Part shown: in pieces, positions 8,837 through 43,239 of the stretch
Position numbering within the stretch: position 1 is the first letter of the stretch
Layout of the letters: each line of letters opens with the position of its first letter
NCBI GenBank assembly: GCA_965243165.1
Contig: OZ251535.1
Location: forward strand, 1,217,572-1,281,571
Origin: Candidatus Spongiisociaceae bacterium
GTDB lineage: Bacteria > Actinomycetota > Acidimicrobiia > Spongiisociales > Spongiisociaceae
Reading direction: 5' to 3'
DNA length: 64,000 bases
Position numbers and translations under genes: made by a program
Notes under the pieces: model-generated
What the model saw: only the letters and a program-made list of their open reading frames with translations
Databases searched by the model: none
Told to the model about the DNA's origin: nothing

Positions 8837-9050
8837 ACGGCCTTCTCTGGACGCCCGCCTCAGCCGCCGGAATCTGTCACAGGCGGGTTGTACCCTCCAT
8901 ACGCATGTTCGGCCTACACGGAATTGACGGCCCTGCGCTCAACCGCAGAGGCGCGCCGCATGGACCCATTGCCGCGTTCCCCGGCCGGGGTGCATCTACC
9001 GTATCGGGCGAAGACGGAGCGGATGTTCTCCGTTCGACGAGGATCGGCGC
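8837..9050. promoter_or_regulatory. Lower-GC intergenic region, putative promoter for the five-gene cluster starting at 9051
   Basis: 214 bp non-coding gap, lower GC than its surroundings, upstream of five co-directional, tightly spaced genes. No explicit -10/-35 assignment was attempted. Confidence 0.3.
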
Positions 9051-11924
9051 ATGGCAAGAACCGCAGAACCGCATCTGAACCTGTTGTTGGCCCAGGCGTT
9101 GGGCAGACGGCACCCGCGGTGGAAGGTGAGCGCCGAGCAGACCCGGAGGGTGCGCGGCTCGGCCGGACTCCGCCCCGACATCCTGGTCGAGCATCACCGC
9201 GGACAGCCGCTCGTCATCGAGACGGAGGTCGACCCGGCCTCCACTGTCGAACAGGACGCTTCCGCGCGGCTCGGGATGACCCTCGAACCCGGCGGAAAGC
9301 AGGTGGAACAGGCGGCGGCGCTCCGCATCCCGGCTTCACTCACCTACGTCAACCAACCGAACCTGGAAGGAGCGGTGGAGCAGGCCGATTATCAGTACGC
9401 CGCGATTTCCTTGAACGCCGACCGAAGCCTCACCCGCTGGCCCCGGGCCGGATGGCTGACAGGCGGGATCGACGACCTGGCCAATCTGTGCGAGAACATC
9501 GCTCTGTCGGAACAGGCCCTGGCCGCCGGGCTGGCCCGGTTGGAAGAAGCGGTGGGCGACATCTCCTACCACTTGCGGCGGCAGGTTCCCCAGGGTGTGC
9601 TCGACAAGATGGCGGCGGAACTGCGGCAGGAGGACGGAGAACAGACATCCCGCATGGCCGCCGCCGTCATCCTGAACGCCGTTACCTTCTATACCGCCCT
9701 GGCAGGCCGCCAGGACATTTCCACACTCGAAGAAATGCGCGCTCAACGTTATGGAAGGCTCCAACTGTCGACGTTGTTGAAAAATTGGGAGAAGATACTG
9801 CGCGTCAACTATTGGCCGATCTTCCATATTGCCAAACAGCTGTTGATTCCTATCCCGGTCGCCGAAGCCAACCTGGCGCTGGAGCAAGCCGCCGCCGCGG
9901 CAGAAGATCTAACCGGGATCGGTGTAACCACGATGCACGACCTGGCGGGGCGGATGTTCCAGCAGCTGATCACCGATCGGAAATATCTGGCCACCTTCTA
10001 CACATTGCCTCCTTCGGCGGCGATGATCGCCGAGCTGGCCGCCGCCAAACTCGAAATCGATTGGGCCGACGAAGGCTCGGTGGCCGAGCTGCGGATCGCC
10101 GACCTGGCCTGCGGTACGGGGACCCTCCTCTCCGCGGCCTATCAGGCAGTACGCTCCCGCCACCGCCGGGCCGGGGGCGACGACGCCAGAATTCACGCCC
10201 GGATGATCGAGAGCGGCCTGATCGCGGCCGACGTGATGCCCCAGGCCGCTCACCTGACCGCCTCGATGCTCTCCTCCGCGCATCCGAGCATACCGTTCGA
10301 CAACACGAGGGTTCACACCCTGCCTTACGGCGTCGATGCCAAGGGGACGCACATAGGGTCGCTGGAGCTGTTGGGAGTCAATGCTTTGGCTTCTCTCTTC
10401 CCGACCGGCGAACAACAGGCTCACGGCGCCGGAGGGCAGGGCCTGATGAAGCTGCAGCGGGAAAGCCTCGATCTCGTGATCATGAACCCCCCGTTCACCC
10501 GCCCCACCAATCACGAGTCGGCCGAGGTTCCCCGCCCCGATTTTGCGGGCTTGGGCAACGACGACGAGGCGCAGCAGCTCATGGGCGCTCGGCTCAGACA
10601 GATTCACAAGCTCATGGCCTCGGAAAAACTCTTGCTGGATCCGGTAGGAAACGGCAACGCCGGCCTGGCGTCTTATTTTGCCGATCTCGCCCATCTGAAG
10701 TTGAAGGAAGGTGGGGTGATGGCGTTGGTGCTTCCCTTCTCCGCAATAGCAGGAAGGTCTTGGAAGAAACTGAGGGCCATGCTGGCCGGCAATTACACCG
10801 ACGCAACGGTGGTGTCCATCGCCGCCGCCGGTTCGACCGACCGGGCCTTCTCGGCGGACACCGGGATGGCGGACGCGGTGATAACAGCCAAGAAGAAAAC
10901 CAAGAGAGGCAGCAACAAGACGCTGTATGTGAACCTGCATCGCCGCCCGGAGAGTATTCCCGAAGCGGTTGAGCTGGCGCGTTCGGCGTCCCGTACCGAT
11001 CCGGAGGAGGAAGGCGGCTATCTGACGGCGGGCGATGATCTGGCCGGTATGTGGATGCAGGGGTCGCTCGTCGGGGATGGAGGCATGGCCGCCGTCTCCC
11101 GGCCGGGCGCGGCGGTCACCATGTCGCGCCTTCCGGGCGGCAGGCTGGTGCTGCCCCGCCGCGCCCGGCCGCTCCGCCTCCCGATGACCACCCTGGCCCA
11201 GGTAGGCCGGGAGGGGTTGGTTCACCGCGATATAGGCGTCAAGCCCGGCGCGATGGGAGACATACGCGGGCCCTTCGATATCCATCCGATGTCGGGTGTT
11301 CCTGACTATCCGGTGCTTTGGGCCCACTCGGCCGGCCGCGAGCGGCGGCTCGTAGTCGAACCGGACAGTGAGGGCAGGGTCAGGCGGGGTCAGGCGGTGA
11401 AAGCGGCCGAGGTGTGGAAGAGGACCGCCGCCCGGTTGCATTTCAACCTCGATTTTCGGTTGAATTCCCAGAGTCTGGCGGCCTGCTTCACTACCGAGCC
11501 GGTCATCGGCGGGCGCGCCTGGCCCAGCTTCGAACCCCGCGAGGAACGGTGGGCCCTGCCCCTTTTGTTGTGGGCCAACACCACCTTGGGCTTGATGTGC
11601 TTCTGGTGGACCGGTACCCGGCAGCACCAAGGCCGGGTCTGTCTCACTATCACCGCCCTCCCCGACCTGCCGGTGTTGGACCCCCGGCGGCTCGACGGCG
11701 GCCGGCTGGAGGCGGCGGAGGGCATATTCGAAGTCTTCCGGGGCCGCGAGCTGCTCCCTGCCAACGAGGCCTACCGCGACGCGGCCCGCCGGAGCCTCGA
11801 CCGCGCCGTCCTCGTCGATCTGCTGGGCCTGCCCGAAGAGATTCTCGGTTCCTTGGACGTCCTGCGCCGGCAGTGGTGCTCCGAACCGTCCGTCCACGGC
11901 GGCAAATCCACCCGCCCGGACTGA
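9051..11924 (+). CDS. Large nuclease/N6-adenine DNA methyltransferase fusion protein (type IIG/IIL-like restriction-modification enzyme candidate)
   Basis: 957 aa. The N-terminus has a PD-(D/E)xK-like signature (RPDILVEHHRGQPLVIETEVD). The central region has gamma-class MTase motif I (IADLACGTGTLL) and motif IV (LVIMNPPFTRP). An about 400 aa C-terminal region is a possible target-recognition domain. Confidence 0.6.
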   Translation: MARTAEPHLNLLLAQALGRRHPRWKVSAEQTRRVRGSAGLRPDILVEHHRGQPLVIETEVDPASTVEQDASARLGMTLEPGGKQVEQAAALRIPASLTYVNQPNLEGAVEQADYQYAAISLNADRSLTRWPRAGWLTGGIDDLANLCENIALSEQALAAGLARLEEAVGDISYHLRRQVPQGVLDKMAAELRQEDGEQTSRMAAAVILNAVTFYTALAGRQDISTLEEMRAQRYGRLQLSTLLKNWEKILRVNYWPIFHIAKQLLIPIPVAEANLALEQAAAAAEDLTGIGVTTMHDLAGRMFQQLITDRKYLATFYTLPPSAAMIAELAAAKLEIDWADEGSVAELRIADLACGTGTLLSAAYQAVRSRHRRAGGDDARIHARMIESGLIAADVMPQAAHLTASMLSSAHPSIPFDNTRVHTLPYGVDAKGTHIGSLELLGVNALASLFPTGEQQAHGAGGQGLMKLQRESLDLVIMNPPFTRPTNHESAEVPRPDFAGLGNDDEAQQLMGARLRQIHKLMASEKLLLDPVGNGNAGLASYFADLAHLKLKEGGVMALVLPFSAIAGRSWKKLRAMLAGNYTDATVVSIAAAGSTDRAFSADTGMADAVITAKKKTKRGSNKTLYVNLHRRPESIPEAVELARSASRTDPEEEGGYLTAGDDLAGMWMQGSLVGDGGMAAVSRPGAAVTMSRLPGGRLVLPRRARPLRLPMTTLAQVGREGLVHRDIGVKPGAMGDIRGPFDIHPMSGVPDYPVLWAHSAGRERRLVVEPDSEGRVRRGQAVKAAEVWKRTAARLHFNLDFRLNSQSLAACFTTEPVIGGRAWPSFEPREERWALPLLLWANTTLGLMCFWWTGTRQHQGRVCLTITALPDLPVLDPRRLDGGRLEAAEGIFEVFRGRELLPANEAYRDAARRSLDRAVLVDLLGLPEEILGSLDVLRRQWCSEPSVHGGKSTRPD

Positions 11925-11966
11925 CCCCGCCTTGGGGGGAGGTTTGTGTCACACCTCCTCTGTACC

Positions 11967-12971
11967 ATGAACCTCATGACTGTTTCGGATGCATCCGCCG
12001 CCGGTTTCTACGACCGGCTCCATGTCGAGAGCTGGGCGCCCGAATACGGCCCTTCGCTGGAGGCCTCCGACGACGATGCAGGCCCGGTTTCTCCGGTCGA
12101 CCCCACTGTGGAAGCCGAGGACTGGAAGCCCTTCGCGGGCGGCGCCGGGGGCGCGCCCGGCCGGGTGGTGTTCGTGGACGGGGTGCGGCGCATCGAGGCC
12201 CGACTGACCTTGGACCATCCGGTCGAAGGTCCGGTGCCGGGCATCCTGGGGGCGTTCGGGGTGGGGGCGGTGATATGGGACCGGGCAGCCCGGCGTTCCA
12301 GCTTCACCGAGTTGACAGTCGAGCGGCTGGCGGTCATGGCCAAGGGGCTGGCAGTGGACATCGACCGCATCGGCGGCCTTCCCGTTTCCCCCGAATCGAC
12401 GCCGGGCGGCGGCCCGTCCGATTTGACGGCCCACCTCCAGCAGCGGATGCGCAGAGCCGAAGGCAGGCTCGCCGACTCCTTCGCCGGCCCCGATTGCCTG
12501 GTGGTTGCCGACGGCCCTTTCCGCGAGCTGCGCGCCCGGCCGGTGGTCGGTTACATCAAGACGCATCAGACCTCCTACCTGGATGAGGAGCACGGCGCCC
12601 TGATAGGCCGGTTGGGGGCGGGCCAACGCACCCCGCTCTTCCTGATCGACGCCGAACGCCACCCCCGCTACTCCTGGTATCTGCGGCTGGCCGATCTGCC
12701 GGGCGGCCATTCGTGGACCGGGGTGGTGCGCTGCGAGGCGGCCGCCTCCCTCGGGGTCGACCGGGCGGCGGAGATGGCGGGCTGGACGGCCGCCCTCCTG
12801 CCCCGGCTGGCCTCCGAAGGCCACATCGACCGGCGGGCGCCCCAGAACCTGGTGCCGATCGCCGCCCTCGAGCGGGAGCTGCGCAAACACATGGGCGACC
12901 AGAACCTGGCCGAACGCGCCCTGCGCACCGCAGTGCGCCGCCTCCGTCTAGCCGGCGCCGGCGCAGGATAG
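11967..12971 (+). CDS. nurA: NurA-like 5'-3' nuclease (HerA partner)
   Basis: About 335 aa with a VVFVDGVRRIEA segment resembling the NurA catalytic (I/V)DGS region, sitting immediately upstream (10-bp gap) of a HerA-like ATPase. Start uncertain (ATG 11946, 11967 or 11976). Confidence 0.5.
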   Translation: MNLMTVSDASAAGFYDRLHVESWAPEYGPSLEASDDDAGPVSPVDPTVEAEDWKPFAGGAGGAPGRVVFVDGVRRIEARLTLDHPVEGPVPGILGAFGVGAVIWDRAARRSSFTELTVERLAVMAKGLAVDIDRIGGLPVSPESTPGGGPSDLTAHLQQRMRRAEGRLADSFAGPDCLVVADGPFRELRARPVVGYIKTHQTSYLDEEHGALIGRLGAGQRTPLFLIDAERHPRYSWYLRLADLPGGHSWTGVVRCEAAASLGVDRAAEMAGWTAALLPRLASEGHIDRRAPQNLVPIAALERELRKHMGDQNLAERALRTAVRRLRLAGAGAG

Positions 12972-12981
12972 GAGGCCGGCG

Positions 12982-14727
12982 ATGCCAGACCGACGAGACC
13001 GGAGCGGCCCCCGCCCGGTGGGGAGGGTGATCTCCTCGGAGCACACCAACACCCAGGAGTTCCGGGTGGTGCTGAACGACGACAGCTACCTCCAGCTCGA
13101 TGACCTGGTGGTGCTGGAGACCGAGGTGCCGGGGGCGGGGACGGTCCGCACCTACGGTGTGGTTACCGAATCTCAGGCCGTCTACGAGGGGGCGCAGTAC
13201 GAATCCGACACCTTCCGCATCGCCGAGGAGGGCATCCTCCCCGCCGCCAAGATCCGGTCGGCGCAGGCGGCGGTAACCAGGGTCGACCCGGAGCTGTGGG
13301 TGGCGCCCGACCCGGGCGGCGAGGTTCACCGCGCCGCCGGCGAACAGCGCGACAAGGCCCTCTACAAGGACGAAATGGGCCGCCCCCTGCCGGTCGGGAT
13401 CGGGCGCGACATGGAACCCGTGTACGCGGACCTCGACTTCTTCGACGGGCGCAAGGGCGGCCACATGTCGATCTCGGGCATCTCGGGGGTGGCCACCAAG
13501 ACCTCCTACGCCCTGTTCTTCCTGCGCATGCTCACCGCCCGCCCTGCTCTGGTGGGGGAGGGGGCCGCCAACCTGCGGATCCTGGTGTTCAACGTCAAGG
13601 GCGAGGATCTGCTGTGGCTCGACAAGCCCAACCGCTTCCTCGACCAGGATGCAGTGGACGCCTGGAACATCTTGGAGGTGGAACCGGCCCCCTTCCCGCA
13701 GGTGAGCTTCTGGGCGCCGCCCCGCCCCCGGTCCGGGGACGCGGTGCTCCCCGACACGGGCGGGCGGATGGAGGGGATCGAGGCCTTCGCGTGGACGCCC
13801 CGGGAGTTCATCGAGGAGGGCCTGTTGGCCTTCCTGTTCACCGACGCCTCCGACTACAGCAACCAGATCTCCTTCGTGGAGGAACGGGTGCGCGCCCAGT
13901 TGCGGCGGCGGGCGGCGGACGTCGCCGGTGAACCGGGGGCGGTGGTGCTGCGCCCGCCGCCCGACGGGGGCTGGCGCGGCCAACAGGTCCGCCCCGACCA
14001 GGGGGAACGGGTGATCCGCACCCTGGCCGACCTCGTAGAGGCCTTGGACGAATACCTCGACCCCCCCGACGGTTCGGACCCCGACCCGGCCTGGTCGGGC
14101 CGCACCCAGACGGGGACCATCTCGGCTTTCATGCGCCGCCTCCATTCCGCCTCCCACCGGCTCGGCCACCTGGTGCGGGCGGGGCCGAGCCGCCGCATCG
14201 ACCGCCATGCCGCCCAGGTAACCGTGGTCTCCATCCAGACCCTCCACGATCTGGGGCAGCGCTTCGTGGTGGGCGCCCTGCTCAAGGAGGCCTTCGAGGA
14301 GAAGGAGAAGACCGGGCACCGTCTGCCGCTGTCGGTGATCGTGCTCGACGAGCTCAACAAGTACGCCCCGCGGGAGGGCCGCAGTCCGCTCAAGGAGATG
14401 CTGATCGACATCGCTCAACGGGGCCGCTCTCTAGGGGTGCTGCTGGTGGGCGCCCAGCAGACCGCCTCGCGGGTGGCGCCCGAAGTGCTGGAGAACGCCG
14501 CCCTGCGGGTGGCCGGACGCCTCGACGCCGCCGAAGCCGCCCGGTCCGAATACGGATGGATGCTCCCCTCCACCCGCGCCCGGGCCCGCCTCCTGAAACC
14601 GGGCACCATGGTGCTTTCCCAGCCCGCCATCCCGGTGCCCCTGGTGCTCACCTTTCCGTTCCCGGCCTGGGCCACCCGCCGGGAGGAAGCCGAAAACCCG
14701 GGCGAAAACCCCTTCGAGGGCCTTTAG
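12982..14727 (+). CDS. herA: HerA-like FtsK/HerA-superfamily ATPase (DUF87), deviant P-loop
   Basis: 581 aa. N-terminal HAS-barrel-like region, then HMSISGISGVATKTS (aligns to the HerA H-x-A-I-x-G-x-T-G-S-G-K-S block but has T/A where canonical G residues are expected) and a Walker B LSVIVLDELNKYAP. Confidence 0.65.
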   Translation: MPDRRDRSGPRPVGRVISSEHTNTQEFRVVLNDDSYLQLDDLVVLETEVPGAGTVRTYGVVTESQAVYEGAQYESDTFRIAEEGILPAAKIRSAQAAVTRVDPELWVAPDPGGEVHRAAGEQRDKALYKDEMGRPLPVGIGRDMEPVYADLDFFDGRKGGHMSISGISGVATKTSYALFFLRMLTARPALVGEGAANLRILVFNVKGEDLLWLDKPNRFLDQDAVDAWNILEVEPAPFPQVSFWAPPRPRSGDAVLPDTGGRMEGIEAFAWTPREFIEEGLLAFLFTDASDYSNQISFVEERVRAQLRRRAADVAGEPGAVVLRPPPDGGWRGQQVRPDQGERVIRTLADLVEALDEYLDPPDGSDPDPAWSGRTQTGTISAFMRRLHSASHRLGHLVRAGPSRRIDRHAAQVTVVSIQTLHDLGQRFVVGALLKEAFEEKEKTGHRLPLSVIVLDELNKYAPREGRSPLKEMLIDIAQRGRSLGVLLVGAQQTASRVAPEVLENAALRVAGRLDAAEAARSEYGWMLPSTRARARLLKPGTMVLSQPAIPVPLVLTFPFPAWATRREEAENPGENPFEGL

Positions 14728-14742
14728 GCGGAGCGGGGGCAG

Positions 14743-15912
14743 ATGCGCATCCTCCATACCTCCGACTGGCACATCGGCAAGAAGATCGGCCGCTTCGACC
14801 GCCTCGACGAATACCGGGAGGTCATCGACGAGGTAGCGGACGCAGCCGAGCGGGAACAGGTCGACCTGGTGGTCCACAGCGGCGACGTGTTCGACCGGCC
14901 CATCCCTCCGATGGCCTCCCTCGCCCTCGGCCTGGAGGGCCTGGTCCGGCTGACCGGCGGGGGGAAGAGGCCGGCGGCGGTCATCGCCGGCAACCACGAC
15001 TCGCCCGCCCTGTTCGAGATATTGGCGGAGTTCATGGCCGCCCGCAATGTGCATCTGGTGGGGGAGATCAAACCCCCGGACGAGGGCGGGGTGCTCGAGC
15101 TCGACACTCCTGGCGGGCGGGCGGTGGTTTCATGTTTCCCGTTCTTGAGGGAGGGCCGGGCCTTCAACGTGTGGACGCCGCCCGGCGGTCAGTACAAGAA
15201 GTACGCCGACCGGCTGGGGAGCATCGCCAAGGCCTACGCCGAGTCCGCCCACCGGAAGGCGGGCGGCGGTGCGGTTACGGTGCTGGCCGCCCATTTCCTG
15301 GTGGGGGGCGCCAAGGTGCACGGCCACGGCGCTCCCAGGGGGGAGCGGGCCCTCCACATGGGCGAGGTCTACGCCGCCGATCCCCGGGCCATCCCGCCCG
15401 GCCCCCAGTATGTGGCGCTCGGCCATATCCACGCCCCGCAGCGGGCGCCGGGGGCGGCGGCCCCGGCCGAGTACGCCGGCTCGCTCCTGGAGCTCGACTT
15501 CGGCGAGGCGGGGGAGCAGAAGCGGGTGGTGGTGGTGGACGTCGAGCCCGGCCTCCCCGCCCAGGTGCGCTCGGTCCCGCTGGCGGGCGGCCGCCGGCTG
15601 CTGCGCCCGGCCGGAACCTGGGAGGAGATCGAAGATATGGAGGGCCTCGACGAGGCGTTCCTCGACCTCACGGTGCACACCGAAGGCCCTGACCCGGGGC
15701 TGGCCGACCGGGCCCGGGAGCGGTTCCCCTATCTGGTCAAGGTGCGGGCCGAGTATCCGAAGGCCGAGTCGGAGCGGCGCTCGCGGGAGGGGCGGGCCGT
15801 CTCCGACCTGTACGGGGACTACTACCGGCGCATCGAGGGGGTCGAACCTCCGGAGGAGCTCATCGAGGCGCTGCGGAAGCTGATGGAGGAGGAGGCCGGT
15901 GCGCCCGCTTGA
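14743..15912 (+). CDS. sbcD: Exonuclease SbcD / Mre11 family nuclease
   Basis: MRILHTSDWHIG... calcineurin-like phosphoesterase motifs (GDVFD, GNHD, GHIH). 389 aa. Confidence 0.85.
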   Translation: MRILHTSDWHIGKKIGRFDRLDEYREVIDEVADAAEREQVDLVVHSGDVFDRPIPPMASLALGLEGLVRLTGGGKRPAAVIAGNHDSPALFEILAEFMAARNVHLVGEIKPPDEGGVLELDTPGGRAVVSCFPFLREGRAFNVWTPPGGQYKKYADRLGSIAKAYAESAHRKAGGGAVTVLAAHFLVGGAKVHGHGAPRGERALHMGEVYAADPRAIPPGPQYVALGHIHAPQRAPGAAAPAEYAGSLLELDFGEAGEQKRVVVVDVEPGLPAQVRSVPLAGGRRLLRPAGTWEEIEDMEGLDEAFLDLTVHTEGPDPGLADRARERFPYLVKVRAEYPKAESERRSREGRAVSDLYGDYYRRIEGVEPPEELIEALRKLMEEEAGAPA

Positions 15913-18436
15913 ACTTCGTCTTCGGAACTTCCGGTCTTTCCGCGGGGAGGGCCACACCTTCGACTTCCGCGGACGGCGTCTGATCGGGGTGGTGGGTCCG
16001 ATCGGCTCGGGCAAGAGCACCATCCTCGATGCGATCGCCTTCGCCCTCTACGGCTGCACCCCCCGCATCAACAGAGAAACCAGGTCGCTCATCCACCAGC
16101 AGGCCGACCACGCGGCGGCGGCGCTGCGGTTCGAAGTCGATGGGGAAGTATGGGAGGCGGTCCGCAACCTGCGGCGGAGCGGCCAGAGCCAGCACGCCCT
16201 GTACAAGCTGTCGGCCGACGAACCGGACGCCGGCGAGGTCGAGAAGGTGTTGCAGCAGCGGGAGGTGAATGCCCGGGTCCAGGAGCTGCTCGGCCTGGAC
16301 TTTCCGGGGTTCAGCCGGTCGGTGCTGCTGGCTCAGGGCCGATTTGCCGAGTTCCTGAACGCCCGCCCGGCGGAGAGGGACAAGGTGCTCAAGGGGGTGT
16401 TCGGCTACGAACGAATCGGCTTGATCCGCGATCTCGCCCGCCGAGCCGCCGCCGCCGGAAAGCACGAGATCGAAAAGCTGGACATCCGCTTGGAGAACGC
16501 CCGGGCGGCGGAAGAACGCCTGTCGAAGCGCCGGGAAGAGCTGGCCGCCGCCGCCGGCCGTCTGGCGGAGCTGGAGAAAGTGCGGCCCGCGTTCGACGAA
16601 CTGGCCGAGCGCATCCGCGCCGCTTCCGAGAAGAGGGGCAAAGCCGAAGACCAGCTGGCCGAACTCCGCCGCCGGGCAAAGGATCTGCCCAACAAGACCA
16701 AGGCGGAGCGCAGCCTGAAAAAGGCCCGCAAGGTGCGCGCCCTGCGGTCCGAGGCCGAGCGGAAGCTGGCGGCCGCCGAGCAGGGGGCGGCCGAGGCGAA
16801 GGAGGCGGCCGAGGCCGAGCGGGTGGAGGAGCGCGAGCAGAGTTGGAACGAAGCCAACCGCTTGGTGGTGCGGCTGGAGGACCGTCAGAAGGCGGCCGAA
16901 GAAGCGTCCGCAGCTGCGGCCAAAGCAGCCGCCGAGGTCGCGGAGGGTGAGAAGTCGGTCGAGGCCGCCCGGTCGAAGCTGGCCTCCGCCGAGGCGGGCT
17001 TCGCCCGCGCCGAAGCGGCCGCGCAGGAAGCCGACGCCGATCTGAGCCGGGCCGAGAAGCTGCTGCAGGACGCCCGGCGCGCCGACATGGCCGGCTCGCT
17101 GCGGGAACAGCTGGCCGAAGGGGACGACTGCCCGGTGTGCGAACAACCCGTGCTTCGGGTTCCCCCCGTTGCCGCCGCCGGCGCCGCAGCCGCCGAGAAG
17201 GCCGTGAAGCAAGCGCGCTCCGCGCAGAAGGGATCGGCGGACCGCCTCCGCACCGCCGCCGGAGCCCTCGGGGCGGCCAAAGCCGCTCTCGAAGGGAAGG
17301 AGCAGCGCCTCGACGGATTCCGCCGCCGGGTCGAGGCGGCGCGGGAAGCGGAAGCCGAACGAAGCGCCCTTCTCGACCGCAGCCGCCGCGAGATGGACCG
17401 CCTGCTGGGCGAGGGCGACCCCGCCGCCCTGCTGAAGGCGGAACGGGCCGCCCTGAATGCTTTTCACAGCAGGGCGGCCGAGGCCCGGCGGGTACTGGAG
17501 GCCGCACAGAAAAGGTTCAACAAAGCCGGCGCGGAGGAGAAGCAGGCGCAGCGGGCGGTGGCGGATCTGCGCATCCGGATCGCCGCCCTCGCCGCCCGGC
17601 TGCCGGCCGGCCCGGAGGTTTCAGAGGACGACCCCGAGGCGGTCAGGGCGGCGTTGACGGCCCTCCACGCCGACTGGAAACAGGTCACATCTGATCTGCA
17701 GCGGGCGGCGGCGGAGGCGAGAACCGAAGCCGAGGCGGAAGCCGCCCGGCTGGCCGAGCTGCGGGCGGAGCACGGTGTCGAGGGTTCGATAGAGGAGGCC
17801 TCGGCCGCGGCCGGCGCCAAACGCGAACAGCTCGAGGCCTACATCGAACAGGACGAACAGCTGCTGGCCGGCGCGAAGGAGCTGGCGGCGGAGAAAAAGG
17901 CCCATCGCGCCGAGGTCCGTTTGCACGAGCGGCTGGTCAAGGATCTGACCGACGCCCGTTTCGTCCGCTTCCTGTTGGACGAAGAGCGGGCGGCGCTGGC
18001 CGGTCTGGGTTCGGAGCACTTCGAGCGGCTGTCGTCGGGCCGGTACCGCTTCACCGAGGACGGTGAGTTCTCGGTGGTGGACCTCAACGCCGCCGAGGCG
18101 GTGCGGCGGGCGGACAGCCTGTCGGGCGGCGAGACCTTCCTGGCGTCGCTGGGGCTGGCGCTCGGTCTGGCCGAGATGGTGGGGCGCCGGGGCGGCCGCT
18201 TGGACGCCTTCTTCTTGGACGAAGGCTTCGGCGCCCTCGACCCCGAGCACCTGGACCTGGCGATGGAGGGCATCGAGTCCCTGGTGTCCGCCCGCGAGCA
18301 ACGCCTGGTGGTGGTGGTTTCCCACATCCCCGAAGTCCAGAACCGCATCGAAGACCTGATCGTGCTCGGCAACCACCCCATCACCGGCGACTCGAAGGTG
18401 GTGTCCGGCGGAGCCGGCCGGCCGCAGCCTTCTTGA
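15899..18436 (+). CDS. sbcC: Exonuclease SbcC / Rad50-like SMC ATPase
   Basis: N-terminal Walker A GPIGSGKSTILDAIAFALYG, a long coiled-coil with a CPVC zinc-hook, and a C-terminal signature LSGGETF plus D-loop. Overlaps the sbcD stop by 14 nt. Confidence 0.85.
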   Translation: MRPLELRLRNFRSFRGEGHTFDFRGRRLIGVVGPIGSGKSTILDAIAFALYGCTPRINRETRSLIHQQADHAAAALRFEVDGEVWEAVRNLRRSGQSQHALYKLSADEPDAGEVEKVLQQREVNARVQELLGLDFPGFSRSVLLAQGRFAEFLNARPAERDKVLKGVFGYERIGLIRDLARRAAAAGKHEIEKLDIRLENARAAEERLSKRREELAAAAGRLAELEKVRPAFDELAERIRAASEKRGKAEDQLAELRRRAKDLPNKTKAERSLKKARKVRALRSEAERKLAAAEQGAAEAKEAAEAERVEEREQSWNEANRLVVRLEDRQKAAEEASAAAAKAAAEVAEGEKSVEAARSKLASAEAGFARAEAAAQEADADLSRAEKLLQDARRADMAGSLREQLAEGDDCPVCEQPVLRVPPVAAAGAAAAEKAVKQARSAQKGSADRLRTAAGALGAAKAALEGKEQRLDGFRRRVEAAREAEAERSALLDRSRREMDRLLGEGDPAALLKAERAALNAFHSRAAEARRVLEAAQKRFNKAGAEEKQAQRAVADLRIRIAALAARLPAGPEVSEDDPEAVRAALTALHADWKQVTSDLQRAAAEARTEAEAEAARLAELRAEHGVEGSIEEASAAAGAKREQLEAYIEQDEQLLAGAKELAAEKKAHRAEVRLHERLVKDLTDARFVRFLLDEERAALAGLGSEHFERLSSGRYRFTEDGEFSVVDLNAAEAVRRADSLSGGETFLASLGLALGLAEMVGRRGGRLDAFFLDEGFGALDPEHLDLAMEGIESLVSAREQRLVVVVSHIPEVQNRIEDLIVLGNHPITGDSKVVSGGAGRPQPS

Positions 18437-18455: not shown

Positions 18456-19385
18456 TCACCGGTGAAGCGGTTCACCCGATTCGATGTCGTATCGTTCCAG
18501 ATAGTCCTCGATGCTGCGGACGTACGCCCGGATCTGGGCCCCGTTGGGATCGTCGGCGGGGAACCAGCCGGCGGCGTATGAAACCGCTCGGCAGGCCGCC
18601 CGCGCCAGGCCGGCCAACATCTCCGAAGAGGCCTCGAGGCCTTGCCCGGTGCTGCGGCAACCGGCTTCGGTGCGCCATGGCGTGATCGCATCGGCGCCGG
18701 GCGGCTCCAACAGAGGGAGGACGGCCCGGCGGTGAGTTTCCGAGAGCTGGGCGCAGAGCCTGCCTATGTTGTGGCCCCGCGCTGCCCGGTCAGGGTCGGC
18801 CTCTAGATGTATCAGCGTCTTGAGCGACAGTTCCACCACCATATGAGCATTCCCGCAACCGCTTTGCAGCCGTTCGTTCATACGCATCCATATATCCACC
18901 ATTTCGCTGCTGCTTCGTTCGATTCGACCGGGGCCGATATGCTCTAGCAACTCACCCAAAGCAACTCTTGCTTCCTCCAATCGGGCAAGGGATTCCGCGT
19001 AGTCGCTGTCGGGCATCACCATCTCCTTGTTCCAATCCACATCGACGCCAACAGGCCGGTTCACGAGAACCCTCCCATGCCGGGCGATCCGCCCTTCGAG
19101 CGATGTGCGCACCTTGGTGGTGCGCATCCTCCACTCCGCTCGGTCGGTCACGCTCACATCCACCGGGAACTCCACGGCCCGCTCCGCCAGTTCCTCCAGC
19201 TCGCACCCCTTTTCCCGGCGTCTTTCGTAGTCCAGATCGTCGAAGACGGCCATCAGGTCGATGTCGCTGTGCTCGTCGGCTTCCCCGCGGGCCACCGAAC
19301 CGAACAGCACCACCCGGCCCGCCCCCGCCTCCGCCAAGGCCGCCGCCGCCCGTTCCGCGGCGGCCCGCACCGGCGCCGCCGCCAT
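18456..19385 (-). CDS. Nucleotidyltransferase (MNT/pol-beta-like) - HEPN domain fusion protein
   Basis: N-terminal GSVARGEADEHSDIDL (GS...DxD NTase motif). C-terminal helical region with an R-x4-H motif (RAARGH), which is HEPN-like. Its start ATG overlaps the stop of the upstream gene (ATGA). Confidence 0.6.
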   Translation of the reverse strand: MAAAPVRAAAERAAAALAEAGAGRVVLFGSVARGEADEHSDIDLMAVFDDLDYERRREKGCELEELAERAVEFPVDVSVTDRAEWRMRTTKVRTSLEGRIARHGRVLVNRPVGVDVDWNKEMVMPDSDYAESLARLEEARVALGELLEHIGPGRIERSSSEMVDIWMRMNERLQSGCGNAHMVVELSLKTLIHLEADPDRAARGHNIGRLCAQLSETHRRAVLPLLEPPGADAITPWRTEAGCRSTGQGLEASSEMLAGLARAACRAVSYAAGWFPADDPNGAQIRAYVRSIEDYLERYDIESGEPLHR

Positions 19386-19684
19386 CAGAACTCCGTGAGC
19401 ATCCGGGCGTCTACATTGGTGATGTAGTCCATGGGGTCGAAGGACATCTCACCGCGGCGGGGGTCGGCGTAGTAGCGCTGCTCGGCCTCCTCGAAGGTAC
19501 CGTCCCCGTCGTAGTGGACGATCCACACGTACTGATAGGCCGCCTCGACCAGCCAGGGGCCCTCCCGCCGGAAGCCGTGGTCGAGGCGGATCGGCAGGAG
19601 CTCCTCGTCCACCTTGGCGGCGAACTCCTCCAGCGTTCCGGGCTTCAGGTCGTAGATGCGGAGTTGAGCGGGCATGGCTCTCAT
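19385..19684 (-). CDS. NIPSNAP-like small protein (99 aa)
   Basis: MRAMPAQLRIYDLKPGTLEEF... resembles the NIPSNAP/Dabb N-terminus. ATGA overlaps with both the upstream and downstream genes. Confidence 0.45.
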   Translation of the reverse strand: MRAMPAQLRIYDLKPGTLEEFAAKVDEELLPIRLDHGFRREGPWLVEAAYQYVWIVHYDGDGTFEEAEQRYYADPRRGEMSFDPMDYITNVDARMLTEF

Positions 19685-21294
19685 GGTACACGGCCTCCTT
19701 CGGGTTTCTTCACCGGGGCCTTCGAACGCCTTCCGGCCCGCTCGAGGTACAGGTCCAGCGTTTTCTCCCTCGCCCACACCAGATCGATCAGGTCTTTTTT
19801 CGGGATCTGGAGCTCCCCGGCGGAGATGATCTCGCGGCGGAACTCGTCCAGCGGGATGCGGCGGTCCTTCTTCCGCTGGTTGTGATACGGGCACAGGGGC
19901 GCCCGGTTGGGCAGCCGGTTGGACCCCTCCGCCGACCTCGGGTCGATGTGGTCCAGATGGAAGTTGATGGGCTTGCGGATGACCTCCCCGTCCGGCCTCC
20001 GGTTGGCGAAGCCGCAGCACCAGGCTTTATAGCCGGACAGCTCCAGCAGCATGACCAGCATCTCCCGAGCCGGTATATCGGACGCCGGAACCTTGTACCT
20101 GCGTTCGCGGGGCTTCATGGCGGGGGCGGGTTTCGGGTCTTGGGTAACCCGTTCGGGGATGCCGTCGGGGCGGATCATCCGGATATCGGCGTCGGCGATC
20201 CAGGCGGTTTGCCTGCCCTCCCTCATCTCCAGCTCGGGGTTCTGGCCGTCCACCGCGTAATGGAACTTGTTGAACTGCCGCCTGACCACGGTCATGGCGC
20301 GCGGGTTTATGTCGCAGGCGATCCACTGCCTGCCCAGCCGTTCCGCGGCCACCGGAACATAGGCGCACCCGGCGAACGGATCCAACACCACGTCGCCGGG
20401 GTTGGAAGCAGACCGGATGATGCGTTCGGCGAGAGCTACGGGTTTCTGGGTGGGATAGCCGGTCCGTTCCGGATCAGTGCTTCCGATATAGGGAATGTTC
20501 CACACATCGCGCATGTTCACTAGGTTGTACACTCCGTGTCTGTCCTGGAAAAATTCGGCCTGTCCTCCTCCGTAGTTGACCACACCTGGTCTACGCGATT
20601 TGGATTTCGTATATGACTTCTCTTTCGGTTTGTTATAGGTCCATTTGCTGGTTTTTGAATAAAAAAAGATAGTGTCGTGTTTCTTGGAGAATCGAGTGCG
20701 CGATGCCCCGCCTGTTCTATACGACCAAACTATTTCGTTGCGGAAGTTCTTCTGTCCCAACACCGCGTCCAGCACAAGACGCAGATAGGAGTTGGCAGTG
20801 GGGTCACAGTGCAAAAAAACCGAACCGGTTTGTTTCAGCACCCGGTGCATTTCAATGATGCGGATCGCCATGTAGGCCAGGTAGGCAGCGTGCCCATCCG
20901 AATGAGAGTAACGGGCGGCGTCTATGACCTTTGCCACCGCCTCGTACCGGCCCTCGATCTTGACCAGCCACTCCTCGTGGATGTCTTTTTCCCAGGCCCA
21001 GACGTCGTGGAACCGGGCGATAGCTTCTCCGTTGTCCGGCCAATCGATGTTCGCTTCGGCGGCGGCGGCGCGGTTGTGGATTCCCCAGCCGGCCAGGGTC
21101 TGTTTCTCCAAGGCCAGCTCTTCGGCGCTCAGAGGAGGCTTCAGCGCGCCGGTGAAGGCGTAGTTCTTGGCGAACGGCGGGTCGGTCACGATCAGATCCA
21201 CCGTTTCGTTGTCCATGGCCCGGAGCATCTCCAGGTTGTCGGCGATCACCATGCGGCGGTTGAGGGGGTGCGGGGAGTCGAACTGGCTGGTCAT
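19681..21294 (-). CDS. Beta-class N6A/N4C DNA methyltransferase fused to a C-terminal HNH endonuclease domain
   Basis: Motif IV DLIVTDPPF comes before motif I VLDPFAGCAY (N6_N4_Mtase order). The C-terminus has CCGF...HLDHIDP...N...CPYHNQ, an HNH signature. 537 aa. Confidence 0.75.
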   Translation of the reverse strand: MTSQFDSPHPLNRRMVIADNLEMLRAMDNETVDLIVTDPPFAKNYAFTGALKPPLSAEELALEKQTLAGWGIHNRAAAAEANIDWPDNGEAIARFHDVWAWEKDIHEEWLVKIEGRYEAVAKVIDAARYSHSDGHAAYLAYMAIRIIEMHRVLKQTGSVFLHCDPTANSYLRLVLDAVLGQKNFRNEIVWSYRTGGASRTRFSKKHDTIFFYSKTSKWTYNKPKEKSYTKSKSRRPGVVNYGGGQAEFFQDRHGVYNLVNMRDVWNIPYIGSTDPERTGYPTQKPVALAERIIRSASNPGDVVLDPFAGCAYVPVAAERLGRQWIACDINPRAMTVVRRQFNKFHYAVDGQNPELEMREGRQTAWIADADIRMIRPDGIPERVTQDPKPAPAMKPRERRYKVPASDIPAREMLVMLLELSGYKAWCCGFANRRPDGEVIRKPINFHLDHIDPRSAEGSNRLPNRAPLCPYHNQRKKDRRIPLDEFRREIISAGELQIPKKDLIDLVWAREKTLDLYLERAGRRSKAPVKKPEGGRVP

Positions 21295-29619: not shown

Positions 29620-31095
29620 ATGAAACTTCTACGCTCCGGGGGGGCGGGGCGCCTCTGGTCGGGTTGGACCGCCGCGGTGCTGATCGCGCTGGCGGTGCTG
29701 GCGGTGTGGTTGCCCGATCTCGGCCTTCCGCTGGGTGACAGCGACGACGGCCGCATCCTGGCCCGCTTCGGCCTCCAGGCCCGCAATTTCTGGGAGCTGG
29801 GGGCGGCGGAGTCGGGTTACGGAGCGTTGATCGATCCGTACATCAGGGCCGAGTACGGGGTTCCGCCGGGGGAGGCGCCCCCGCGGGCGGCGGTCACCTA
29901 CGCCCATCATCCGCCCCTCCAGACCTTCGCCACCATCCTCTCGGTCGGGCTGTTCGGCGACAACCTGTTGGGGCTGCGGGCGGCGGGGTTCCTGACGGGG
30001 GCGGCCGCGGTGCTCTTCATGACCGCCCTGCTGCGCATCAGGGGGATCGGATGGGGGCCGGTCCTCTTGGCGGTGGGCTCTATGGCCGCCACCGGTTTCT
30101 ACTTCGTGTACGGGAGGATCGGGGTGGGGTTCTCGCTGATCGTTGCTTTGGCGGCGGCGGTCGCCTATCTGCGGGAGGCCGCCGATCCGACCCCCGCCGC
30201 CTCCGCAGCCGCCGCGGTGCTGGCCGGGCTGACCGCCATGCAGTCGTGGATCGCCATGGCGGCCGCCGGGCTGCTGATCCTGTGGCTGGCGGCCGCCAAG
30301 CGCTGGGCGCCGATCACCCGGTGGACGGCGGCGGGGGCGCTGGCCGGGGCGCTGGTCACCGCCGCCTGGCTGCTCAACTCCACCGACCTGGGCGAGCTGG
30401 GCCAAAGGGCGGCCTTCCGGATCGACACCACCCGGGGGACGTTCGGGGAGTTCCTGGCCCGCCAGTGGCGGTTCGCCTCCATGTTCACGCCGGTTTGGTT
30501 CCGGGCGATGGCGCCCTTCGCCCTGCTGGCCGGACTGGCCGACCGCCGCACCAGGGTTCCCGTCGCCGTCACCCTGGGGGTGGCGGCCGCCTGGACCTTC
30601 GGCCTGCAGCAGGGCGCCTGGATCCATCTGCTCTGGAACTTTCCCTGGCTGGCGCCGGTAACCATCGGGGCGGCGGCGCTGATCGAAGCGGTGCGGCGGG
30701 TGCTGGTCGACAGCTGGGCGGTCTGGGCGGCGGGGGTGTTGTGGGCCGGCGCCCTGGTCTTCTCGCTGTACGGGGCGGCGGCCGGGCCGGCGCGCGAGCT
30801 CTACCTGGCCGCCCCGGCCGACGCCGGGCTGGTGATGGAACAGGCGGCGCAGGCGCGGACGCCGGGGCTGATGTGGGTGACGCCCGGCATCGGCACCCCC
30901 CGGTGGGTCTCCTACTACCTGGACGAGCCGGTCTGGACGCTGGACGCCGGCTCGCTCGGCGGGCTGGAGGCCGAAGACATGGTGCTGGTGCGCACCGACC
31001 GCATCCCCGCCTTCATCCCCGAAGAATCCATGGACGAGGCGCTGATCTCCGAAGGCCGCTACCGCCTGATACCCGGTGGGGCGCTGGTCCGATGA
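29620..31095 (+). CDS. GT-C-like polytopic membrane glycosyltransferase (paralog 2)
   Basis: Paralog of the preceding gene. Start at MKLLRSGG (ATG 29620). Its stop overlaps the start of the giant GT gene (ATGA). Confidence 0.55.
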   Translation: MKLLRSGGAGRLWSGWTAAVLIALAVLAVWLPDLGLPLGDSDDGRILARFGLQARNFWELGAAESGYGALIDPYIRAEYGVPPGEAPPRAAVTYAHHPPLQTFATILSVGLFGDNLLGLRAAGFLTGAAAVLFMTALLRIRGIGWGPVLLAVGSMAATGFYFVYGRIGVGFSLIVALAAAVAYLREAADPTPAASAAAAVLAGLTAMQSWIAMAAAGLLILWLAAAKRWAPITRWTAAGALAGALVTAAWLLNSTDLGELGQRAAFRIDTTRGTFGEFLARQWRFASMFTPVWFRAMAPFALLAGLADRRTRVPVAVTLGVAAAWTFGLQQGAWIHLLWNFPWLAPVTIGAAALIEAVRRVLVDSWAVWAAGVLWAGALVFSLYGAAAGPARELYLAAPADAGLVMEQAAQARTPGLMWVTPGIGTPRWVSYYLDEPVWTLDAGSLGGLEAEDMVLVRTDRIPAFIPEESMDEALISEGRYRLIPGGALVR

Positions 31096-37121: not shown

Positions 37122-37423
37122 CAGCGCCCTCCGCGGGAGAGCGCGCCGCCGTCCGCCCCGCAGCTGCTCGGATGACCCTGATTGTTCACATCCCCGCGGG
37201 CGGGCCGCCGCCCGCGCCGGTCATGAGCCGATGCATCCGGATTTCTGAACCGGCAGCGCTTGCCCAATGGTGAACTCGCGTTTCTGATCAGACAGTCATC
37301 TCCCGTTGTTGTCCCAGGTCAGATGGGATGACAGAGGGTATTTCAGCTGCCCTGCCCCATCTCTCGTGAGCAATTCAGGGTCAAGGCGCGGGAGATCGGG
37401 CGGCGGTTTATAGACTGCCCTGG

Positions 37424-43207: not shown

Positions 43208-43239
43208 AGCTGCTCCGGCGGCGTTCGATGGGGTGATTC

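What the first reader, a model, noticed from the sequence alone, without database searches (positions are those of the whole stretch)
9051..11924. Single-polypeptide nuclease + gamma-class adenine MTase with no separate partner MTase
Motifs I (DLACGTGTLL) and IV (NPPF) are clear. The N-terminus has a PD...ExE arrangement rather than the classical ExK, and there is a long C-terminal region. This architecture could be a type IIG/IIL RM enzyme, a BREX PglX-like or MmeI-like protein, or a nuclease-dead modification enzyme. Which one it is determines how the whole cluster should be read.
Basis: partly seen in the sequence, partly recalled or inferred. Interest (0 to 1): 0.6.

Follow-up and report, generated by a model that had tools for sequence, protein, structure and literature searches.

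The report
Unannotated single-chain restriction-modification enzyme family
The gene most likely encodes a one-protein restriction-modification enzyme (DNA cutter, adenine methylase and DNA reader in one chain) from a large family that databases label "hypothetical"; it is a later insertion next to a DNA-repair operon, not a partner of it.

Summary
It belongs to a large family conserved over its full length: more than 4,200 hits, and about 1,100 clusters at 50% identity. No Pfam, NCBIfam or PADLOC model reaches threshold, and the only source name found is "hypothetical protein".

The domain order is an N-terminal PD-(D/E)xK-type nuclease, a helical connector, a gamma-class N6-adenine methyltransferase, a variable region and a conserved C-terminus.

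[quoted passage not shown] E6, E29, D43, E57 and E59 are at least 97% conserved. A profile comparison places E59 on the lysine of a canonical PD-ExK motif in a distant relative with the same architecture.
- **ExE motif.** It has active precedents in BamHI and in the bifunctional enzymes TspDTI, Tth111II and TsoI.
- **Whole-protein fold.** The best matches are DrdV (type IIL) and BpuSI (type IIG).
- **Context.** Homologues are solitary, with no conserved neighbour and no companion methylase.
- **Neighbouring operon.** NurA-HerA-SbcD-SbcC occurs in related contigs without this gene, so it is an ancestral repair operon.

Verdict: probably a type IIG/IIL-like restriction-modification enzyme, a new family of a known kind. 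Cleavage and methylation activity are untested.

The parts
9039..9043 (+). Shine-Dalgarno-like GAGGA, 7 nt upstream of the ATG
   Evidence: Read directly from the sequence.
9051..11924 (+). Complete gene, 957 aa plus stop: predicted single-chain restriction-modification enzyme
   Evidence: ORF list and translation. Coding GC pattern. More than 4,200 full-length homologues. dN/dS of 0.21 against the 93%-identical orthologue in L056.
9051..9470 (+). N-terminal PD-(D/E)xK-type nuclease domain, aa 1 to about 140. Candidate metal-binding and catalytic residues: E6 (9066-9068), E29 (9135-9137), D43 (9177-9179), E57 (9219-9221), E59 (9225-9227).
   Evidence: AF2 domain model with pLDDT 87.7 and pTM 0.84. 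Its topology is H6-20, E24-28, E44-48, E54-60, H66-73, E87-93. The five residues are at least 97% conserved. hhalign against the canonical PD-ExK N-terminus of Aminobacter WP_108610813.1 gives Prob 95.3% and E 2.1e-8, with E59 aligned to the K. Weak Foldseek hits are dominated by PD-(D/E)xK nucleases.
9471..9950 (+). All-helical connector, aa about 141-300
   Evidence: The AF2 full-length model shows helices H140-150 to H292-307, with pLDDT mostly 60-88. This is the same position as the helical region in MmeI and DrdV (PMC2731913; 10.1101/2021.01.06.425610).
9951..10970 (+). Gamma-class N6-adenine DNA methyltransferase core, aa about 301-640. Motif X ATFYTLP is at 9990-10010, motif I DLACGTGTLL at 10101-10130 and motif IV NPPF at 10485-10496.
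   Evidence: Motifs are invariant in the family. Pfam gives weak hits across 44 members: Eco57I in 14 (best 8.9e-7), N6_Mtase in 12, MmeI_Mtase in 5. The distant relative with 27% identity over 808 aa (E 2e-65) passes the Pfam N6_Mtase threshold. Foldseek on the whole model returns DrdV, BpuSI, BsaXI, HsdM and BrxX.
10971..11540 (+). Most variable segment, aa about 641-830: candidate target-recognition region
   Evidence: Family conservation is lowest here (0.41-0.49). Among seven paralogues in one MAG, identity is 37-46% at aa 651-800 against 64-88% in the nuclease and methylase core. The model is low-confidence in this region, so the assignment is an inference.
11541..11921 (+). Conserved C-terminal module, aa about 831-957. 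Motifs: NTTLGLMCFWW (11577-11609), LPANEAYRD (11754-11780), WCSEPSVHGGK (11874-11906).
   Evidence: These positions are invariant or nearly invariant. The module is also alignable with the Aminobacter relative. No family model covers it. Its function is not established.

Best explanation
The gene encodes an autonomous, single-polypeptide restriction-modification enzyme of the type IIG/IIL kind.

Proposed mechanism, by analogy with MmeI and DrdV:
1. The C-terminal variable region reads a short DNA sequence, probably an asymmetric one.
2. The central SAM-dependent methylase (DLACGTG / NPPF) flips out and N6-methylates an adenine in that site. This marks host DNA without any second methylase.
3. 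On unmodified foreign DNA, several site-bound molecules associate through the helical connectors.
4. [quoted passage not shown] Their acidic, BamHI/TspDTI-like E...E...D...ExE metal site does the chemistry.

What is shown: the gene is real; the domain order; the nuclease-type fold; strict conservation of the active-site residues; the gamma-class methylase motifs; solitary genomic contexts; and faster divergence of the putative recognition region.

What is inferred: DNA cleavage, one-strand methylation, oligomer-dependent cutting and a defence role.

In this genome the gene was inserted between a glucose/sorbosone-dehydrogenase gene and a pre-existing NurA-HerA-SbcD-SbcC repair operon. It may be co-transcribed with that operon but is not functionally tied to it.
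For: **Nuclease domain**
[quoted passage not shown] E6 lies on alpha1, E29 at the end of beta1, D43 at the start of beta2, and E57/E59 on beta3.
- This mirrors the MmeI pattern of E25/E51/D70/E80/K82 (PMC2731913).
- The residues are at least 97% conserved over 79 sequences. ExE is seen in all inspected N-domains among the 149 of the best 150 representative hits that were retrieved.
- hhalign to a canonical RPD..IEGK domain in a 947-aa relative with the same architecture gives Prob 95.3% and E 2.1e-8.
- Named Foldseek hits are almost all PD-(D/E)xK nucleases.

**ExE has active precedents**
- BamHI uses PD94-E111xE113.
- The active bifunctional enzymes TspDTI, Tth111II and TsoI use D66, E75 and E77.

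**Whole protein**
- The best PDB fold matches are DrdV (6.5e-11) and BpuSI (1.8e-10).

**Solitary gene**
- None of 55 genome loci has the window's neighbours, and no other protein family flanks the gene in more than 18 of the 55 loci, none of those at a fixed position.
- Relatives at 68-74% identity sit among housekeeping genes.

**Recognition region**
- Within-genome paralogues differ most at aa 651-800.

**Selection**
- dN/dS is 0.23 for the nuclease domain and 0.12 for the methylase.
Against: - No activity data exist for any member of the family.
- No single structural match to the N-domain is strong. The best PDB E-value is 0.11, the best BFVD E-value is 9e-4, and TM-scores are 0.3-0.47.
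- The full-length model is poor in the methylase and C-terminal parts (mean pLDDT 60.6, below 50 for aa 683-881). The fold matches to DrdV and BpuSI have TM of only about 0.3.
- No known TRD model hits the C-terminal part.
- In BamHI, E113K abolishes activity. E-type and K-type sites are therefore not interchangeable, and activity cannot simply be transferred from ExK relatives.
- The ~12 Dehalococcoidia loci share a syntenic position between E1-alpha and E1-beta, and their copies are 62-92% identical to one another depending on the region. That looks like long vertical retention and would also fit a housekeeping or epigenetic methylase role.
Confidence: 0.68

Rival explanations
1. It is a modification-only enzyme. 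In this view it is a solitary DNA adenine methylase whose N-terminal nuclease-like domain no longer cuts DNA. The domain would instead serve DNA binding, oligomerisation or regulation, making the protein an epigenetic or 'orphan' methylase.
For: The canonical lysine is replaced by glutamate. The ~12 Dehalococcoidia loci share a syntenic position between E1-alpha and E1-beta genes, which suggests long vertical retention. No cleavage data exist.
Against: Five acidic or polar residues at the canonical catalytic positions are conserved in representatives of about 1,100 clusters. That is hard to explain for a dead site. The same ExE site is active in BamHI and TspDTI. The nuclease domain has dN/dS of 0.23. 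Up to seven paralogues per genome with divergent recognition regions fits defence better than regulation.
Confidence: 0.17
2. It is the methylase or recognition subunit of a multi-gene system together with the downstream NurA-HerA-SbcD-SbcC genes. Such a system would be MADS-like or a new methylation-guided degradation system.
For: The genes share a strand and have very short spacers: 21 nt to NurA, then 10 nt, 15 nt and a 14-nt overlap. No terminator-like site lies between the gene and NurA. There are weak PADLOC hits to mad2, mad3 and mad8. The 93%-identical relative has the same layout.
Against: None of 55 homologue loci, nor the relatives at 68-74% identity, has NurA, HerA, SbcD or SbcC nearby. 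Related operons are found as GSDH-NurA-HerA (L063) and NurA-HerA-SbcD-SbcC-gpsA (L060) without this gene. The NCBIfam MAD2 score is 15.8 bits against a cut-off of 720. The lower GC of the gene marks it as an insertion.
Confidence: 0.06
3. It is a BREX-type PglX or another non-cleaving methylase that needs unlinked partners. Alternatively it is a methylase of RNA or protein rather than DNA.
For: By sequence, the nearest solved structures are PglX/BrxX, but only over the SAM-binding segment aa 346-407 (E 1.5e-5). PADLOC gives a PglX hit at 2.5e-4. There are weak METTL5 and MTS-type hits at NPPF.
Against: No PglZ, BrxC or BrxL is present here or in homologue loci. NCBIfam BREX models score 10-14 bits against cut-offs of 500-900. 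PglX has no N-terminal nuclease. The whole-protein fold matches are all DNA restriction-modification enzymes. The distant relative passes the N-6 DNA methylase threshold.
Confidence: 0.05

Closest known systems
Type IIL enzymes MmeI and DrdV (single-chain, one-strand modification)
   Same: The domain order is the same: N-terminal PD-(D/E)xK nuclease, helical connector of about 150 aa, gamma-class N6A methylase, C-terminal recognition part. The size is similar (957 aa against 919-1029). Conserved acidic residues sit at equivalent positions: E on helix 1, E at the end of beta1, D at the start of beta2 and E-x-(K/E) on beta3. There is no flanking methylase and no conserved neighbours. The recognition region diverges fastest. 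DrdV is the top fold match.
   Different: There is no significant sequence similarity to MmeI models: MmeI_Mtase hits only 5 of 44 members, at E >= 0.035, and none of the other MmeI domain models hits. The third catalytic position is E rather than K. Motif IV is NPPF. A strongly conserved C-terminal module of about 125 aa has no described counterpart. The family is unnamed in the sources checked.
Thermus TspDTI / Tth111II / TsoI subfamily (type IIS/IIC/IIG bifunctional enzymes)
   Same: These are bifunctional enzymes with the organisation nuclease - helical - methylase - specificity. They carry the 'atypical D-EXE' nuclease motif (D66, E75, E77) and are biochemically active. Their homologues carry D-EXK, just as the Aminobacter relative does here.
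   Different: TspDTI is 1112 aa with DPACGSG and NPPW motifs, against DLACGTG and NPPF here.
BpuSI / Eco57I-type type IIG enzymes
   Same: BpuSI (3s1s) is the second-best fold match, with 790 aligned columns and E 1.8e-10. There are weak Pfam Eco57I methylase hits in 14 of 44 family members.
   Different: Eco57I and BpuSI systems include separate companion methylase(s). None is linked here. The window protein scores 14.9 bits against the Eco57I cut-off of 25.3.
Unnamed ExK sister group: Aminobacter sp. MSH1 pUSP4 WP_108610813.1 ('N-6 DNA methylase', 947 aa) and haloarchaeal virus HSTV-4 gp087 ('type IIG restriction modification enzyme', 975 aa)
   Same: The Aminobacter protein is 27% identical over 808 aa (E 2e-65), covering connector, methylase, variable region and C-terminus. 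Its N-domain is homologous by profile comparison. Lengths and architecture match.
   Different: These relatives have the canonical PD-X12-ExK motif and pass the Pfam N6_Mtase threshold. The window family has ExE and falls below every curated threshold.
BREX PglX (BrxX)
   Same: Both are large gamma-class N6A methylases. PglX gives the closest PDB sequence hit over the SAM-binding segment.
   Different: PglX has no nuclease domain and works only within a BREX operon. No BREX genes are present here.

Membership tests
Type IIG/IIL single-chain restriction-modification enzymes (architecture class) | N-terminal PD-(D/E)xK endonuclease domain with conserved catalytic residues | tested here: met
   [quoted passage not shown] E6, E29, D43, E57 and E59 are at least 97% conserved. 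hhalign to a canonical PD-ExK domain gives Prob 95.3%. Weak fold hits are dominated by PD-(D/E)xK nucleases. K is replaced by E, as in BamHI and TspDTI.
Type IIG/IIL single-chain restriction-modification enzymes (architecture class) | Helical connector between the nuclease and methylase domains | tested here: met
   The model is all-helical over aa 140-307. Fold matches include the HsdM N-terminal helical domain plus methylase, and DrdV.
Type IIG/IIL single-chain restriction-modification enzymes (architecture class) | Gamma-class N6-adenine methylase with motif order X - I - IV, (D/N)PP(Y/F/W) | tested here: met
   ATFYTLP at 314-320, DLACGTG at 351-357 and NPPF at 479-482 are invariant. The link to Pfam N6_Mtase is transitive, through the Aminobacter relative.
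Type IIG/IIL single-chain restriction-modification enzymes (architecture class) | Target-recognition domain in the same polypeptide | tested here: inconclusive
   The region aa 651-800 is the most divergent, especially between paralogues in one genome. However, the model there has pLDDT below 50 and no TRD family model hits.
Type IIL (MmeI/DrdV logic) | No second methylase; the gene stands alone | tested here: met
   There is no conserved neighbour in 55 genome loci or in 3 metagenome contexts.
Type IIL (MmeI/DrdV logic) | Methylation of one strand of an asymmetric site; cleavage at a fixed distance; need for several sites | not testable with these tools
   This requires a methylome and in vitro cleavage assays.
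MmeI family in the strict sense | Full-length sequence similarity to MmeI (E < 1e-20) with D70/E80/K82 aligned (PMC2731913) | tested here: not met
   Pfam MmeI_Mtase hits only 5 of 44 members, best E 0.035. No other MmeI domain model hits. The K position is E.
Eco57I family | Match to the Eco57I methylase model above threshold, and a companion methylase gene | tested here: not met
   The score is 14.9 bits against a cut-off of 25.3. There is no adjacent methylase.
BREX PglX | Membership of a BREX operon (PglZ, BrxC, BrxL and others) and a match to the PglX models | tested here: not met
   NCBIfam BREX_1_MTaseX scores 13.9 bits against 500, and BREX_6 scores 10.7 against 900. No BREX genes are in the window neighbourhood or in homologue loci.
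MADS (Mad2 methylase) | Match to the MAD2 model and the presence of the other mad genes | tested here: not met
   NCBIfam MAD2 scores 15.8 bits against a cut-off of 720. The mad3 and mad8 hits of the neighbours are generic SMC/P-loop similarity. The neighbours are not linked to the gene elsewhere.
Thermus TspDTI subfamily | Sequence relatedness to TspDTI, with the D-EXE, DPACGSG and NPPW motifs | not tested
   Only the motif types could be compared, from PMC3384240. D-EXE is shared. Motifs I and IV differ. No TspDTI sequence was available for alignment.

The most novel reading that the evidence does not exclude
The family may be a large, so far invisible reservoir of type IIL-like enzymes that some lineages keep as a standing multi-specificity restriction repertoire. 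One Dehalococcoidia MAG has seven paralogues with diverged recognition regions. In this window's lineage, placing the gene at the head of the NurA-HerA-SbcD-SbcC operon might couple restriction breaks directly to an archaeal-type end-resection machine. That would resemble the way RecBCD finishes off restricted DNA.
Probability: 0.1. Interest if true: 0.6.

Novelty: new member of a known kind. Interest (0 to 1): 0.35.

Why it matters
Single-chain type IIG/IIL enzymes change their recognition sequence easily, so they are a preferred source of new and engineerable restriction specificities. This family has about 1,100 clusters at 50% identity and spans many phyla. It still escapes Pfam, NCBIfam and PADLOC thresholds and is labelled "hypothetical". 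Defence-system censuses therefore miss it, especially in uncultured Chloroflexota, Acidimicrobiia, Gemmatimonadota and similar MAGs. For this window, the practical consequence is that the NurA-HerA-SbcD-SbcC genes should be annotated as a chromosomal repair operon, not as part of a defence system built around this methylase.

Tried and rejected
- **Family models on the whole protein and on its N- and C-terminal pieces (Pfam, NCBIfam, PADLOC).** Only sub-threshold methylase-core hits appeared, and nothing covered the end domains.
- **Sequence and profile searches of the PDB.** They returned only the PglX SAM-binding segment or spurious coiled-coil and designed-protein hits.
- **Linkage to NurA/HerA/SbcCD.** Tested and rejected.
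- **MADS and BREX membership.** Rejected.
- **Flanking direct or inverted repeats and terminators that would mark the insertion boundaries.** Nothing convincing was found.
- **A conserved partner gene of at least 100 aa in 55 loci.** None was found. The recurrent neighbours in Dehalococcoidia are housekeeping genes (E1-alpha, E1-beta, GatB, SDR) or antisense ORF artefacts.
- **Literature search for a NurA-HerA plus methylase defence system.** Nothing relevant was found.
- **Exact-sequence look-up of the window protein.** It is not on record.
Full report
**1. Observation**

The window is about 70% GC. The ORF 9051-11924 (+) starts with ATG, is preceded by GAGGA at 9039-9043, and encodes 957 aa. 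Its codon-position GC (0.68/0.49/0.80) is that of a real gene. Its overall GC (about 0.64-0.66) is below the flanks at 0.70-0.72.

All the quoted motifs are present:
- RPD43 ... E57-T-E59
- motif X, ATFYTLP (aa 314-320)
- motif I, DLACGTGTLL (aa 351-360)
- motif IV, NPPF (aa 479-482)
- a long C-terminal part

**2. Family**

A search of 5.8 billion proteins gave more than 4,200 hits. The listed ones are full-length (about 950-1,000 aa), 50-93% identical, carry almost no precomputed Pfam domain, and the only name given is "hypothetical protein".

A scan of one genome per species returned 55 loci. They come from MAGs of Acidimicrobiia (68% identity), Chloroflexota/Dehalococcoidia (33-40%), Gemmatimonadota, Acidobacteriota, Latescibacterota, Gammaproteobacteria and others. 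Several genomes carry more than one copy: seven in one Dehalococcoidia MAG, three in another.

A profile of the N-terminal 148 residues, run against 1.84 billion cluster representatives, found 1,106 proteins (727 at E <= 1e-10). In the best 150 the domain lies at or near the N-terminus in nearly all (three short proteins carry it further in). Full-length proteins are 902-1,137 aa, and shorter ones look like contig-end fragments.

Curated models do not recognise the window protein. Pfam, NCBIfam and PADLOC give only sub-threshold methylase-core hits. Across 44 diverse members the recurrent weak hits are Eco57I, N6_Mtase, MmeI_Mtase and MTS.

**3. N-terminal domain**

Across 79 sequences reaching down to about 33% identity, E6, N10, E29, P42, D43, E57 and E59 are at least 97% conserved.

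A domain-only AlphaFold model (pLDDT 87.7, pTM 0.84) has the topology helix 6-20, strands 24-28, 44-48 and 54-60, helix 66-73, strand 87-93. This is the PD-(D/E)xK core. The conserved residues sit where that fold places its metal ligands. The layout matches the one described for MmeI: E25, E51 at the end of beta1, D70 at the start of beta2, and E80/K82 on beta3 (PMC2731913).

Foldseek found no strong individual match: best E 0.11 in the PDB and 9e-4 in BFVD. Even so, the lists are dominated by PD-(D/E)xK enzymes. These include RecU, EcoT38I, BstEII, Cas4, McrC, EndoMS, Exo5, HincII, LmuA, an Mrr-domain protein, VRR-NUC proteins, MmcB and a haloviral "PD-(D/E)XK nuclease".

The clearest evidence came from distant relatives found by tblastn in plasmids and phages:
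- A 947-aa "N-6 DNA methylase" on Aminobacter plasmid pUSP4 is 27% identical over 808 residues (E 2e-65). The match runs from the connector to the C-terminus.
- Its N-terminus reads ...EEAVN...AET...RPD...IEGK, a canonical PD-ExK motif.
- hhalign of the family N-domain profile against it gives Prob 95.3% and E 2.1e-8 over 127 columns. E6, N10, E29, PD43 and E57 fall on identical residues, and E59 falls on the lysine.
- A haloarchaeal virus protein annotated "type IIG restriction modification enzyme" has the same layout with QPD...GEAK. Its profile match is not significant.

The window family is therefore an ExE branch of a wider ExK group. All inspected N-domains among the 149 retrieved representative hits have ExE.

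ExE is not a sign of inactivity. BamHI uses PD94-E111xE113 (PMC8845596). The active bifunctional enzymes TspDTI, Tth111II and TsoI have an "atypical D-EXE" site, while their homologues have D-EXK (PMC3384240).

**4. Rest of the protein**

The full-length model is only moderately confident (mean pLDDT 60.6). It is good for aa 1-300 and poor for parts of the methylase and for aa 683-881.

Its best PDB matches are:
- DrdV, type IIL (E 6.5e-11, 694 columns)
- BpuSI, type IIG (E 1.8e-10, 790 columns)
- BsaXI, then HsdM subunits, BrxX/PglX and type ISP enzymes

TM-scores are about 0.3, so this supports the architecture class rather than a close relationship.

Residues 140-307 are helical, like the connector of MmeI and DrdV.

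The least conserved stretch is aa 651-750. Among the seven paralogues of one MAG, identity falls to 37-46% at aa 651-800, against 64-88% in the nuclease and methylase core. This is the pattern expected of a recognition region, but it is an inference.

The last 125 residues or so are strongly conserved (NTTLG..FWW, LPANEAYRD, WCxEPSVHGGK), and no model explains them.

A comparison with the 93%-identical orthologue gives dN/dS of 0.21 overall, 0.23 for the nuclease domain and 0.12 for the methylase.

**5. Context**

Downstream on the same strand, with spacers of 21, 10 and 15 nt and a 14-nt overlap, lie four genes:
- NurA (Pfam 22.7 bits, above the cut-off)
- a HerA-like ATPase
- SbcD (TIGR00619, 155.8 bits)
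- SbcC

Only the 93% relative shares this layout. None of the 55 genome loci has any of these four genes within 10 kb. Relatives at 68-74% identity are single genes among enolase, RraA, dehydrogenase and similar genes.

Conversely, contigs that carry close relatives of the HerA gene lack this gene:
- L063 shows GSDH followed directly by NurA-HerA.
- L060 shows GSDH ... NurA-HerA-SbcD-SbcC followed by gpsA, without this gene and without the nucleotidyltransferase and MTase-HNH genes found at 18456-21294 in the window.

The repair operon is therefore ancestral. The methylase gene is a later insertion at its head, and the other two genes are an insertion at its tail.

In about 12 Dehalococcoidia loci the family gene sits between the E1-alpha and E1-beta genes of a 2-oxoacid dehydrogenase, with spacers of about 25 nt. 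There too it has no partner.

A full-length member on a Nitrosospira plasmid, and an IS-flanked C-terminal fragment on a Dinoroseobacter plasmid, show that the family moves.

**6. Interpretation**

The combination found here is the signature of type IIG/IIL enzymes:
- a conserved nuclease site
- a helical connector
- a gamma-class N6A methylase
- a fast-evolving region
- solitary genes with no companion methylase

MmeI homologues were described in the same terms: "no additional DNA methyltransferase genes", "no particular genes consistently flanked".

I therefore favour an autonomous enzyme that protects host DNA by methylating its own site and cuts unmodified DNA, at confidence of about 0.68. 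The rival readings are:
- a non-cutting methylase (0.17)
- a component of a system with the repair operon (0.06)
- PglX-like, or not a DNA enzyme (0.05)

The protein is not a member of the MmeI, Eco57I, PglX or MAD2 families by their own criteria. It works like the first two but forms a separate sequence family.

**7. Novelty and limits**

Noticed in passing
window 11946-18436 (+): A tight four-gene operon, NurA - HerA-like ATPase - SbcD - SbcC. This is the archaeal-style end-resection gene set, found here in a 70% GC bacterium. It is conserved between a GSDH gene and gpsA in related metagenome contigs (L060, L063) that lack the methylase.
   Followed up: partly
window 18456-19385 (-) and 19681-21294 (-): A 309-aa MntA-like nucleotidyltransferase, and a 537-aa beta-class N6_N4 DNA methylase fused to an HNH nuclease. 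Both lie in a lower-GC stretch (about 0.62-0.64). Both are absent from L060, so they are a second insertion at the other end of the repair operon. Homologues of the MTase-HNH lie within 10 kb of family members in 5 of 55 loci (L004, L026, L031, L032, L039).
   Followed up: partly
window 46138-48915 (-), within the low-GC stretch about 44-51 kb: A 925-aa protein with an N-terminal DUF1156 domain sits in a region of 0.60-0.62 GC. It may belong to another horizontally acquired, defence-type island.
   Followed up: no
window 29739-37121 (+): A very long reading frame (2,460 aa when translated from the open-frame start at 29739) with several family-2 glycosyltransferase domains. It is followed by an SLH/SpoIID protein (37370-39592) and a sugar transferase (43237-44514), so this is a cell-envelope polysaccharide locus.
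   Followed up: no
L023, L024, L028, L036, L041, L043, L044, L046, L047, L052 (around 10001-13040 in each): In these Dehalococcoidia MAG loci the family gene is wedged between the E1-alpha and E1-beta genes of a 2-oxoacid dehydrogenase. It is on the same strand, with spacers of about 25 nt upstream and about 25 nt to several hundred nt downstream. This is an unusual, apparently long-retained insertion inside an operon.
   Followed up: partly
L026, L027, L032, L033, L038, L040, L048 (one MAG, CBDATG01 contigs 2 and 3); L018, L029, L030 (OZ242043.1): There are seven and three paralogues of the family in single genomes. They differ most at aa 651-800. One copy (L018) has lost the second glutamate (IEGRQ instead of IExE).
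   Followed up: partly
L066 6001-6663 (Dinoroseobacter shibae pDSHI04); NZ_AP024517.1 38455-41388 (Nitrosospira plasmid): There is a C-terminal fragment of a family member (aa 720-932, 40.6% identity) between IS elements on one plasmid. There is a full-length member (36% identity) on another. This is evidence of mobility and decay.
   Followed up: no
L065 5443-8286 and neighbours (Aminobacter pUSP4): The ExK sister-group gene sits on a mobilizable plasmid. Its neighbours are a zincin-like metallopeptidase-domain gene (anti-restriction ArdC proteins are often annotated this way) and DUF5710 and DUF3560 genes.
   Followed up: no
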